A stretch of DNA of 64,000 bases from Candidatus Babelota bacterium. GTDB taxonomy: Bacteria > Babelota > Babeliae > Babelales > Vermiphilaceae. Of this stretch, positions 45,001-48,000 are shown piece by piece. How positions within the stretch are numbered: the first letter of the stretch is position 1; each line of letters starts with the position of its first letter. The position numbers are program-made. The DNA lies in the NCBI GenBank assembly GCA_049325595.1, contig JBMOLF010000015.1, positions 128,001 through 192,000 of the forward strand, given 5' to 3'.

Positions 45001-48000
45001 AGTTTGGCTGAACTTCAAAGAAAATTTTATAACAAATGAAAAAATCGTATAACGATAATTAATTTATATAAGCGGATATCAATTATTCGCTTTTTTTATT
45101 TTAATAAAACTTTTCATTTTTTCATGCGCATATTATATTGATATTCTAGCCATAAAATTGGAAAAAATATTTAAAAAATTACCGTATAATAAAGGCATTT
45201 ACGCTCATGGAAAGCAACTTTATTGTAGAACAAAAACCGTTCATTTCATTGCTATCTGCAATGCAACCTATTTGCTCAAAACGTACTACTATTGATGCAA
45301 CAAGCATGATTATGTTTCAAATAGGACACAAAGAAGTGGTGTTAAAAAGCACTGATTTAGAAATTAGCTTACAAGCAAGTTACTTGCCTAGTTTGTGCAA
45401 TATTACTGAACCGCATTCATTTTTAGTTCCAGGCAAACGTATTTTTGATATTGTAAAAGAATTGGATGGTGACATACAATTTCAATTGCGTAACAACCAA
45501 CTTTCAATCAAATCAGGTTCGGTTAATTTGTCGTTAAATATTAAAGATGCGCAAGAATTTCCACCATTTCCTGAGCGCATTGAAAATATTATGCACCTTG
45601 ATGCATCATTCTTGCTTAATATGCTTGATAAAGTTGCCTTCTTGATTCCCCAAAATAATGCTAACAACTCATTAAACGGCTTATTCTTAGAAATTTCGCC
45701 AACAGAATTTAAAATGACCACCACGGATGGGCATTGTCTTGCTCAGGTAAGCACCGATAAGTTTACCTTAGAAGAACCTAAAAAATGGTTACTTCCTCGT
45801 CGTGCCGTTTTTGAAGTAAAAAAATTACTCGAAGCTGCGTCAGATAGCCCGGTATTTTTAGGGGTATGCGGTAATCAATTAGTGTTTTCTGGTGAATCAT
45901 TTAACTTCTTCACTAAACTACTTGCCGATCAATTTCCTCAATACAATGCAATCTTAAATAAAGAAGGCTTTGTTGGAGCAGTGGTTGATCGTTCACATTT
46001 AGTTAAAACATTGCGCCGTTCTTCTTGTTTATTATCAGGACAATTTATTGCTACAAAATTTAGTTTTGATTCTAATTCTTTAAATGTATCGATGCAAAAT
46101 AAAGAAGTAGGTAATTTAGAAGAAAATTTACCATTATATCAATTTAATGGTGACCCTATGGATATTCGCTTTTATGCGCCATATCTTTTAAGCGGCCTTC
46201 AAGCATTTGCCGATGATAAAATTAATTTTTTCCTAAAAAATGCTACTAAACCAATTTTATTCCAAAGCGAAACTGATAGCGGCAGACTTACCTATTTGGT
46301 AATGCCAGTATCGCCTACTATGAGTAATTAACAGTGCAATTGCAACGCCTTACTATCAAAAATTTTCGCTGTTTCGAGTCTTTAGAGCTTAATTTTGGCA
46401 ATGCTATAATTTTCATCGAGGGACTCAATGGTTCGGGAAAAACCTCTATTATAGAGGCGTTGCATTATTTATGCTATCTTCGCTCATTTCGAACTTCAAG
46501 CTCATCTGACTTGCTTCAGTTTGATACTCAGACTTTCTTTGTAAAGGCTGAGATTAAAAATAACGACATTATAGATGAATATCATTCTATTCAAGTAGGT
46601 TTTAAGGGCAAAAAAAAGATCGTTCGCGTTAACCAGAAAGCGGTCAACTCCTATAAAGATTTAATGCATTTTTACCGGGTTATAACCGTTACCGAAGACG
46701 ACCTTGAGCTTATCAAGGGTTCCCCAGAAGCACGTAGAAATTTTATCGATCATGTTATTATTCTTTATAGCCCAGATTTTGCCCAATCTGTTCGTCGCCT
46801 TAAGCATATTGTAGAACAACGTAATGCTATTATCATGCAGGGCAAAAAAGATGCTACCGAATTTGCTATTTGGACTCAGCAGCTTTGGCAGGTTTCCCAG
46901 CATATAAAGCAGTTGCGCAAAGAAACGTTAGTTCAACTTGAGCAGGAAATAGGGGTACTTACCCAGGCATACTTTCCTGATATTGCTATTCAGTTTCATT
47001 ATACCAGTAAATCCAATCAAGACGCGTACGAGCAATTTTTTACAGAAAATTCATCATTATTCGCTCAAGAAGAGCGCCTGGGGCGCTCCTTATTTGGCGC
47101 ACATTTAGATGATTTTTCGGTAACTTTTCAGCAAAAAAAATCTAAGATTTATGCATCACGAGGTCAACAAAAATTGGTTATCATGCTGGTAAAAATTGCG
47201 CAAATGAAGTGGCTCTGCCAACGCAAGGGCCCTGCAATCTTCCTTCTTGATGATTTTATGACTGATTTTGACCGTCAAAAGGGTATTCAGCTTCTCAAGC
47301 CGCTTTTAGATATGAGCAATCAAATAATTATAACAGCACCAGGCACCAATCAGTGGTTAGCCCAAGAATTGCATTCTTATGGTTGTACTTATATAAATCT
47401 TACAGAATGAATATTTTATTATAAATAAAGCATTATTATTTTTTACTGTTTTGACAAACATAAAAATTATCTATATAATGTTTGTAATGATATTTGAAAA
47501 AAGATTGTTAAAACAACATTTATTGACATAAAATATTTGACTTTTTTGTAATATCATTTAATTTAATTCTTAGAATCTATAGTCAAAATATAAAAATAAC
47601 TTATGGACTATAAGAAATTTTAATTAGGCTTCATTACTACTCTCCTTTTTTCCATCGCATTGATTTCGGTCAGTGCGGTGGAATTTTTTTTGCTTATTTA
47701 CCATTTTTTTCAATACGATATAGATCAGCTCATGTGTATAAGCAAAGACCTATTTATTTAGTTAGTTATTCGTATAGTGGTCTTTTTTCTATTACTAGTA
47801 GTAAGACGTTTAATTGGTTAGTAAATTTGTGTGGGTTTTTACGCAGAGATAAATAAATGCCTTCCTTTATAAAGAATAATATAATTAAAACCGCAAAAAA
47901 TTGATTCATCAATAATTTGATTCATCAATGTTCATAAAGTCACGGTCCATCCATCTTCAAATTTTTACATAATGAGCATTATCGGAACATTTTTTGCTAA

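What a model noticed while it worked through the whole genome (the two positions that open the first line are those of the whole stretch)
47451..47691. Order-wide ultraconserved ~75-nt RNA behind recF whose free 5' half mirrors the consensus ribosome-binding site
In the AT-rich spacer behind dnaN-recF (no gene call, no Rfam family) lies a small transcription unit on the + strand: a perfect sigma-70 promoter (TTGACA-17-TATAAT, C15:175451-175479; one of only three perfect ones in the genome, another drives dnaK), ~205 nt of RNA and a strong intrinsic terminator (15-bp hairpin + U8, ending C15:175691). Its last ~75 nt (C15:175615-175691) are conserved like a tRNA gene: 80-99% identical in nearly all Babelales genomes, whereas proteins of two genera of this family share a median of 46% identity (RecF next door 32%). 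The conserved part is a ~30-nt unpaired CU-rich stretch ([sequence left out]) plus the terminator hairpin. The stretch is the exact antisens [...]
Evidence so far: One of only 4 BLASTN matches of 652 spacers against genome G183; same place and strand behind dnaN-recF there. BLASTN of 96 nt: hits in 77 of 80 Vermiphilaceae genomes (62 of 63 high-quality), mostly query 14-92 at 82-99% identity, and in 37 of 41 sampled high-quality Babelales genomes, 17 of 19 families, e.g. 95% over nt 17-89 in family f20. Own vs G183: median protein identity 45.6%, 4 of 515 matched proteins >=80%; other DNA segments >=45 nt at >=86% are tRNA genes only. cmscan, all 4227 Rfam families, both strands, E<=1: no match. 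RNAfold: + strand -26.5 kcal/mol, z -4.2; - strand -17.5, z -2.1 with a broken stem. The G183 hairpin differs on both arms yet folds to a perfect 14-bp stem. P [...]
(Added by a program. Inside this text positions count along the whole contig: contig position 128,001 is position 1 of the stretch shown here. "Call 12" and the like, gene names such as g00115 and contig names such as C1 are that model's own, and its searches are not shown. The text may have been shortened before it was handed on; [...] marks where a part breaks off. The agent that wrote the report below was given it as the finding of a first reader that could run no searches.)

Follow-up and report, generated by a model that had tools for sequence, protein, structure and literature searches.

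The report
Conserved anti-ribosome-binding-site small RNA behind recF
Behind the DNA-repair gene recF, nearly all bacteria of the amoeba-associated phylum Dependentiae carry a small, apparently undescribed RNA gene whose exposed, almost invariant stretch is the mirror image of a ribosome-binding site plus start codon, so it most likely blocks translation of other genes.

Summary
Window 47451-47691 (+) is a compact unit. It has the genome's only TTGACA-17-TATAAT promoter, about 130 nt of variable 5' RNA, an invariant single-stranded CU-rich stretch (47626-47653) and a 15-bp terminator with U8.

A covariance model finds the 3' 75 nt in 148 of 151 genomes sampled from the phylum. The hairpin covaries (9 of 12 pairs, with U-G pairs that fit only the + strand). 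A TTGACA promoter lies upstream in 28 of 29 loci, against 2-4 of 29 in control windows. The gene sits directly behind recF in 58 of 60 loci, although RecF is only 33-48% identical.

The two families missed by the searches (f8, f17) carry a shorter homologue at the same place. It keeps only CUCCUUUCUCCUUUU, which contains an exact copy of the 16S tail word CUCCUUUC.

The best reading is a new family of antisense small RNA that works without a chaperone and masks the Shine-Dalgarno sequence and start codon. In support, 126 of 1276 start regions pair at -16 kcal/mol or better, against 4 of 1276 internal controls.

Four things remain open. No conserved target was found. The spacer-plus-start word is not enriched order-wide. 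Expression evidence is weak. The invariance of the 5' half of the stretch is unexplained.

This scan met the same family earlier on another genome (e1-2378315).

The parts
46334..47410 (+). recF (context): the gene that precedes the RNA gene across the order; dnaN lies at 45207-46331
   Evidence: Pfam SMC_N/RecF and DNA_pol3_beta. recF lies upstream on the same strand in 58 of 60 loci and in 13 of 16 distant loci. No terminator-like site lies between the recF stop and the RNA's terminator.
47451..47479 (+). sigma-70-type promoter TTGACA-17-TATAAT
   Evidence: 12 of 12 matches, unique in the genome at spacer 17. A promoter scoring at least 10 of 12 lies upstream in 28 of 29 homologous loci, against 2-4 of 29 in control windows. 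Conservation with a same-genus genome starts at the -35 box.
47486..47691 (+). predicted transcript, about 206 nt (5' end inferred from the promoter, 3' end from the terminator)
   Evidence: Fold -41.1 kcal/mol, z -3.6. The block conserved within the genus ends at the U-tract. Three of four metatranscriptome contigs end at 47672-47688 (a weak hint).
47568..47615 (+). stem-loop next to the seed on its 5' side; sequence varies between genomes
   Evidence: Centroid structure. The 60 nt upstream of the seed fold better than shuffles in 46 of 67 copies (z<=-1), mean z -1.75; the hairpin usually ends 6-14 nt before the seed.
47626..47653 (+). single-stranded seed AGGCUUCAUUACUACUCUCCUUUUUUCC. Anti-start CAU is at 47632-47634, anti-SD CUCUCC at 40-45. 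Positions 47631-47645 are identical in all 52 aligned copies.
   Evidence: Alignment A1. Mean unpaired probability 0.80, and at least 0.6 in 58 of 67 copies. Its reverse complement reads AAAAAAGGAGAG-UAGUA-AUGAAG.
47650..47691 (+). intrinsic terminator: 15-bp hairpin (47650-47683) plus U8 (47684-47691)
   Evidence: 9 of 12 modelled pairs carry compensatory changes, 97.2% of cells are paired, 0 of 500 shuffles do as well, and U-G pairs are frequent.

Best explanation
This is the gene of a small regulatory RNA of a family confined, as far as searched, to the Dependentiae. It is transcribed from its own strong promoter, and probably also by read-through from dnaN-recF. Transcription ends at an intrinsic terminator.

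Between a variable 5' stem-loop and the terminator the RNA exposes a CU-rich stretch. That stretch presents an anti-Shine-Dalgarno word (CUCUCCUUU, like the 16S tail CCUCCUUUC) and, five bases upstream of it, an anti-start word (UUCAU).

The RNA would pair with the translation initiation regions of mRNAs that carry AAAGGAG(AG)...AUGAA. It would do so more strongly than the 16S tail does, keep the 30S subunit off, and lower their translation, without Hfq, ProQ or CsrA.

Shown: anatomy, strand, conservation, synteny, promoter conservation, and computed complementarity to start regions.
Inferred: transcription, pairing in the cell, repression, and the identity of the targets.
For: Structure and strand:
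- The hairpin covaries, with U-G pairs that would be A-C on the other strand.
- A U-tract follows the hairpin in all aligned copies.

Independent unit:
- A promoter is present in 28 of 29 upstream windows (exact TTGACA in 27), against 2-4 of 29 (0 exact) in four kinds of control window.
- The block conserved within the genus runs from the -35 box to the U-tract and stops there.

Seed exposed:
- Mean unpaired probability is 0.80.

Seed function points to the SD:
- Families f7, f12 and f20 have a variant with a second CUCCUUU and tandem gene copies.
- f8 and f17 keep only GCUCCUUUCUCCUUUU plus a terminator behind recF, in 4 of 5 loci.
- CUCCUUUC is an exact word of the own 16S tail.

Complementarity to start regions in the own genome:
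- The duplex is -16 kcal/mol or better for 126 of 1276 start regions, against 4 of 1276 internal windows and 16-32 for 8 shuffled seeds.
- At -20 kcal/mol or better the counts are 43 against 0.
- Most of the 57 perfect complements of 11 nt or more are AAAAAAGGAGA(G) a few bases before an ATG.

Other:
- No Hfq, CsrA or ProQ was found, which fits a long seed.
- All four metatranscriptome runs laid (4 studies) hold a contig over the conserved part.
Against: - No transcript ends or levels could be measured. The RNA-library contigs are 151-173 nt at depth 2-2.8. One runs 94 nt past the terminator and one covers the promoter, so DNA carry-over is not excluded.
- No conserved target was found. Sites with at most 2 mismatches to the 19-mer (about 35 non-self sites in 81 genomes) start unrelated proteins or tiny ORFs.
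- The own genome has no perfect complement.
- AGUAGUAAUGA is not enriched over its reversed control once the RNA genes themselves are subtracted (212 against 128 in 83 genomes, about 95 of the 212 being the genes). Multi-target pairing therefore does not obviously explain why UUCAUUACUACU is invariant.
- Any anti-SD-like word pairs with start regions, so one search shows capacity, not use.
- The enrichment of exported proteins among predicted targets (31% against 18%) disappears when only the non-coding part is scored.
Confidence: 0.5

Rival explanations
1. A decoy that mimics the 16S 3' tail. The RNA offers a copy of the anti-SD tail (CUCCUUUC) to a protein or nuclease that normally binds the 3' end of 16S rRNA, or to pyrimidine-binding ribosomal protein S1, and so titrates that factor rather than pairing with mRNAs.
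For: The word common to all forms, f8 and f17 included, is CUCCUUU(C), identical to the own 16S tail. 15-28 nt are invariant with no conserved complementary target, which is more typical of a protein-binding or machine-binding site. No Hfq, CsrA or ProQ was found.
Against: Similarity to the tail is limited to 7-8 nt. The flanks (UUCAUUACUA) do not resemble GGAUCAC. No candidate partner protein was identified. The in-register anti-start CAU is left unexplained.
Confidence: 0.15
2. A small RNA with one or a few specific conserved targets, for example ruvC as proposed for another genome, rather than a broad set of start regions.
For: Earlier finding e1-2378315 named ruvC. ruvC lies close by here (48553-49041, -) and in at least 4 other loci. 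One ruvC start region gives -20.1 kcal/mol (L064). C7:12540 in the own genome holds a 15-nt perfect complement of the 5' half.
Against: The ruvC start region here gives only -11.6 kcal/mol (about the 25th percentile), and -13.3 and -12.1 in two other loci. Near-perfect sites in other genomes belong to unrelated genes.
Confidence: 0.12
3. Only the terminator and 3' UTR of the dnaN-recF operon. The conserved stretch acts in cis on that mRNA (stability or processing) and is not a separate RNA.
For: Strict position behind recF. No other terminator-like site follows recF, so recF transcripts should end here.
Against: A conserved TTGACA promoter lies between recF and the element. Tandem copies each have their own promoter-like site and terminator. 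Pairing with the dnaN and recF start regions is weak (-6.3 and -11.8 kcal/mol).
Confidence: 0.1
4. A minus-strand mini-ORF (MKPN*) with a perfect ribosome-binding site, or a DNA-level site (replication or recombination) at the GC-skew switch.
For: The minus strand reads AAAGGAGAG-N5-ATG AAG CC. 29 of 67 copies give a 4-codon ORF. The locus lies at a GC-skew sign change where genes converge.
Against: ORF length ranges from 3 to more than 53 codons, and residues after MKP vary. U-G pairs and the U-tract fit the + strand only. Promoters are found upstream on the + strand, not on the other strand. The hairpin sequence is replaced by covarying sequences, which a protein-binding DNA site would not tolerate. 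No dyad symmetry like that of a dif site was seen (by eye).
Confidence: 0.04

Closest known systems
RsaE / RoxS (Rfam RF01820) of Bacillales
   Same: A widely conserved, terminator-ended small RNA. Its pyrimidine-rich unpaired motifs pair with Shine-Dalgarno regions of several mRNAs, and it can act without Hfq (recalled knowledge; also named as closest by e1-2378315).
   Different: No match to the Rfam model. The motifs there are short C-rich words, partly in loops. Here there is one long linear CU-rich stretch that also carries an in-register anti-start codon. The phylum differs, and this gene has a fixed position behind recF.
6C RNA (Rfam RF01066) of Actinobacteria
   Same: A small RNA conserved across a phylum, with C-rich exposed motifs thought to bind G-rich ribosome-binding sites (recalled).
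   Different: No Rfam match. 6C presents its motifs in two hairpin loops; here the motif lies in a single strand between a 5' hairpin and the terminator.
IhtA of Chlamydia
   Same: A small RNA of obligate intracellular bacteria, conserved across the group, that masks the start region of an mRNA without Hfq (recalled).
   Different: IhtA has one known main target (hctA). No single conserved target was found here. There is no sequence relation.
3' tail of 16S rRNA (anti-Shine-Dalgarno)
   Same: Shares the word CUCCUUU(C) and would bind the same mRNA bases.
   Different: A separate transcript of about 100-210 nt with its own promoter and terminator. Its flanks are unrelated to 16S.

Membership tests
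Trans-acting base-pairing small RNA that masks the ribosome-binding site (functional class) | Own promoter and intrinsic terminator that delimit a non-coding unit | tested here: met
   No conserved ORF on either strand.
Trans-acting base-pairing small RNA that masks the ribosome-binding site (functional class) | Conserved, accessible seed complementary to translation initiation regions | tested here: met
   15 nt invariant in 52 of 52 copies. Unpaired probability 0.80. 126 of 1276 start regions against 4 of 1276 internal windows at -16 kcal/mol or better.
Trans-acting base-pairing small RNA that masks the ribosome-binding site (functional class) | The RNA is expressed as a discrete species | tested here: inconclusive
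   Contigs are present in 4 of 4 metatranscriptome runs, but they are short, of low depth and not strand-resolved.
Trans-acting base-pairing small RNA that masks the ribosome-binding site (functional class) | Demonstrated target regulation | not testable with these tools
   Needs reporter, toeprint or interactome experiments.
RsaE/RoxS (RF01820) and 6C (RF01066) | Match to the family covariance model | tested here: not met
   cmscan of 46500-48500 against all 4227 Rfam families at E<=10 gave 7 weak matches, none in 47451-47691 and none to these families.
6S RNA (RF00013) | Model match, and a rod-like fold whose 5' and 3' ends pair around a central bubble | tested here: not met
   No RF00013 match anywhere in the own genome, so a divergent 6S was considered. 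The fold here is local hairpins plus a free stretch, and the homologues in other families have promoters only 33-76 nt before the seed.
SRP RNA / tmRNA | Is the genome's only copy | tested here: not met
   SRP RNA is at C23:6728-6820 and tmRNA at C7:68989-69358. ARAGORN finds nothing here.
Leader or mini-ORF on the minus strand | ORF conserved in length and sequence | tested here: not met
   3 to more than 53 codons in 67 copies.

The most novel reading that the evidence does not exclude
A phylum-wide RNA that mimics the 30S initiation complex. It presents an anti-SD word and an anti-start codon at ribosome-like spacing, binds any strong start region, and acts as a global governor of translation in these chaperone-less intracellular bacteria. 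It could, for example, silence strongly translated genes in a non-growing or infectious stage. Its invariance would then come from facing hundreds of start regions at once, as the 16S tail does.
Probability: 0.2. Interest if true: 0.85.

Novelty: new member of a known kind. Interest (0 to 1): 0.62.

Why it matters
Dependentiae are a poorly studied phylum of obligate partners of protists, with only a few cultured strains. My two searches of the held paper library for regulatory RNAs or transcriptomes of this phylum returned no relevant title or abstract.

This RNA is found in 148 of 151 genomes sampled and is more conserved than any neighbouring protein. It is therefore probably central to their gene control, and it gives a handle on translation control without Hfq, ProQ or CsrA.

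It is also a practical marker. A 19-mer picks out Dependentiae contigs almost exclusively (68 of 80 listed loci are full matches).

If it acts broadly on start regions, it would be a natural competitor of the ribosome's own anti-SD tail.

Tried and rejected
- Rfam at E<=10: nothing relevant. ARAGORN: none.
- 6S, SRP or tmRNA identity: rejected.
- Perfect complement in the own genome: none. The best in-register start regions match 20 of 28.
- Pairing with rRNA, tmRNA or SRP: no complement of 11 nt or more was noticed at their places among the 57 sites listed, which are mostly start regions.
- Cis pairing with the dnaN and recF start regions: weak.
- ruvC lead from the earlier finding: not supported here.
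- Orthology of near-perfect sites: only one pair, from one genus, is related.
- Mini-ORF sites complementary to the seed are not reverse-oriented RNA gene copies; they have no terminator.
- Enrichment of the word UAGUA before ATG in the own genome (10 observed against 2.3 expected) did not generalise. The 11-mer is not enriched order-wide.
- Exported-protein regulon: the enrichment is modest and comes from the MK start.
- The PWM-simulation excess of matches is confounded by the mixture of true and false starts in my crude gene calls.
- Sequencing runs: none held half of the sampled words. Only Logan contigs were available, so no ends, strand or level could be read. One contig ran past the terminator.
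- A first run of the duplex script hit the time limit. It was repeated with 8 instead of 30 shuffles.
- dif-like or DnaA-box readings were rejected by eye (no dyad symmetry, hairpin covaries). No formal test was run.

Full report
**What is there.** The spacer between recF (46334-47410, +; Pfam SMC_N/RecF) and the next gene, which is on the other strand, holds a compact + strand unit.
- A TTGACA-17-TATAAT promoter at 47451-47479 (12 of 12 matches). It is the only one with that spacing in the 1.29-Mb genome; one more has spacer 16 and one has spacer 18.
- About 130 nt that fold into local hairpins.
- A free CU-rich stretch at 47626-47653.
- A 15-bp hairpin at 47650-47683 followed by U8.
- The 206-nt unit folds at -41.1 kcal/mol (z -3.6, 0 of 200 shuffles as low). 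The opposite strand gives -32.9 kcal/mol (z -2.4).
- No Rfam family matches at E<=10, and ARAGORN finds nothing.
- The genome's SRP RNA and tmRNA lie elsewhere.
- RF00013 (6S) matches nowhere in the genome, but the fold and size of this unit do not fit 6S.

**Conservation.**
- BLASTN of 47596-47695 matched 130 of 151 genomes sampled from the order (117 of 125 high-quality).
- I aligned 52 copies (A1): the 30 best loci plus distant and tandem copies that I picked from the list. Positions 47631-47645 (UCAUUACUACUCUCC) are identical in all 52.
- The 12 modelled hairpin pairs are paired in 97.2% of cells. Nine of them carry compensatory changes, and 0 of 500 shuffles reach any of the five measures. 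Sliding the partner by 1-3 columns drops pairing to 26-48%.
- U-G pairs are common (15 and 23 sequences at two positions). They would be A-C mismatches on the other strand, and a U-tract follows the hairpin. The RNA is therefore read from the + strand.
- A covariance model built from A1 hit 148 of 151 genomes of a phylum-level sample. All of them were labelled as the same order (146 of 149 high-quality).
Of the 80 loci listed, 68 are full model matches. Their titles are Dependentiae, TM6 or Babeliales, or unlabelled or automatically labelled MAGs. The 12 others include those from clearly other taxa; they match the seed only, weakly, or not at all.

**It is an independent unit.**
- A promoter with at least 10 of 12 consensus positions lies within 320 nt upstream on the same strand in 28 of 29 loci (exact TTGACA in 27). 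The same test gives 2-4 of 29 (0 exact) in four control windows (distances 33-176 nt).
- Against a genome of the same genus, the conserved block begins at the -35 box and is about 90% identical through the 5' part. It is 100% identical in the last 75 nt up to the U-tract, and alignment is lost directly after the U-tract.
- The 60 nt before the seed fold better than shuffles in 46 of 67 distinct copies (mean z -1.75). The hairpin's sequence is not conserved.
- The seed is predicted to be unpaired (mean probability 0.80; at least 0.6 in 58 of 67 copies).

**Position.**
- The gene lies directly behind recF on the same strand in 58 of 60 loci. One exception sits at a contig end.
- The same holds in 13 of 16 further distant or tandem loci.
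- RecF itself is only 33-48% identical.
- No other terminator-like site follows recF here, so recF transcripts probably end at this terminator too.

**Variants.**
- Families f7, f12 and f20 carry a second form with a duplicated motif (CUCUCCUUUCUCCUUUUUU), often as tandem genes 120-270 nt apart.
- Families f8 and f17 were missed by BLASTN (0 of 3 and 0 of 7) and mostly by the model. In 4 of the 5 loci I fetched they have, behind recF, (A)GCUCCUUUCUCCUUUU plus an 11-bp terminator and a U-tract, but no CAUUACUA part.
- The element common to all forms is therefore CUCCUUU(C). It is an exact word of the own 16S 3' tail, GGAUCACCUCCUUUCGAGG.

**What it could bind.**
- The reverse complement of the seed reads AAAAAAGGAGAG-UAGUA-AUGAAGCCU, that is, a Shine-Dalgarno sequence, a 5-nt spacer and a start codon followed by AAG.
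- With crude gene calls (first ATG of ORFs of 100 codons or more; 1276 starts), the genome shows G enrichment at -12 to -7 and A at +4 and +5.
- The seed forms duplexes of -16 kcal/mol or better with 126 of 1276 start regions. The figure is 4 of 1276 for internal windows and 16-32 for eight shuffled seeds. At -20 kcal/mol or better the counts are 43 against 0.
- Most of the 57 perfect complements of 11 nt or more in the genome are AAAAAAGGAGA(G) just before an ATG.
- No Hfq, CsrA or ProQ gene was found in this 95%-complete genome.

**What argues for caution.**
- There is no perfect target in the own genome.
- G at -3 and GCC at +5 to +7 are not consensus.
- Sites within 2 mismatches of the 19-mer occur about 35 times outside the RNA genes in 81 genomes (the reversed control gives 2). 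They start unrelated proteins or tiny ORFs; only one pair, from one genus, is related.
- The 11-mer AGUAGUAAUGA totals 212 in 83 genomes (first 91 of 151 rows), against 128 for its reversed control. About 95 of the 212 are the RNA genes themselves, so there is no excess.
- Exported proteins are modestly over-represented among predicted targets (39 of 126, 31%, against 18%). The excess disappears when only the non-coding part is scored.
- The ruvC target proposed by an earlier follow-up of this scan on another genome (e1-2378315) gives -11.6 kcal/mol here, and -20.1, -13.3 and -12.1 kcal/mol in three other loci.
- The minus-strand mini-ORF varies from 3 to more than 53 codons.

**Expression.** No run held half of the sampled words. 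All four metatranscriptome runs laid (four studies) hold one short contig over the conserved part, at depth 2-2.8. Three contigs end at 47672, 47679 and 47688. One runs 94 nt beyond, and one run also covers the promoter. This is compatible with transcription but does not show it.

**Reading.**
- Most likely (about 0.5) this is a new family of antisense small RNA that masks the Shine-Dalgarno sequence and start codon of several mRNAs.
- The closest known in function are RsaE/RoxS, 6C and IhtA. These are recalled from memory; there is no model match.
- The rivals are a decoy that mimics the 16S tail, a regulator with few specific targets, a pure recF 3' element, and minus-strand or DNA-level readings.
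- The invariance of UUCAUUACUACU remains unexplained.

**Literature.**
- 'Dependentiae' with 'small RNA' gave 2 papers that look unrelated by title and abstract start.
- 'Dependentiae' with 'transcriptome' gave 55 papers. None of the 15 listed is about RNAs of this phylum, judged by title and abstract start.
- A general search on CU-rich small RNAs gave nothing on this family.
- The genome announcement of a cultured strain was seen only as a listing and abstract start (PMC8812299).
- No paper was read in full. Subscription journals and supplements were not covered.

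Noticed in passing
window ~32000-47000 (C15:160-175 kb); dnaA at C15:217387-217863 (-), outside the window: The GC skew of the contig changes sign (+ to -) here and genes converge on this point. dnaN-recF sits at the switch, while dnaA lies about 42 kb away. Whether this is the origin or the terminus is open.
   Followed up: partly
own genome C7:12540-12554 (+), outside the window: A 15-nt perfect complement of the seed's 5' half (GUAGUAAUGAAGCCU) with a 7-codon ORF, lying between two convergent genes. There is no terminator on the other strand. It may be a target or a relic.
   Followed up: partly
L031 (G011:C10:13028-13440), L033, L034, L035, L036: Two to three tandem copies of the RNA gene behind recF in families f7 and f12. 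They mix the single-motif and double-motif seed forms, and each copy has its own terminator.
   Followed up: partly
window 47072-47088 (+): A G+C-rich 7-bp hairpin (GAGCGCC-UGG-GGCGCUC) inside the recF coding region, flagged as terminator-like.
   Followed up: no
window 47997-48515 (-) and 49106-50254 (-): Two ORFs flanking ruvC with no Pfam family. The first has a start region that pairs with the seed at -16.9 kcal/mol, but its start codon is uncertain.
   Followed up: no
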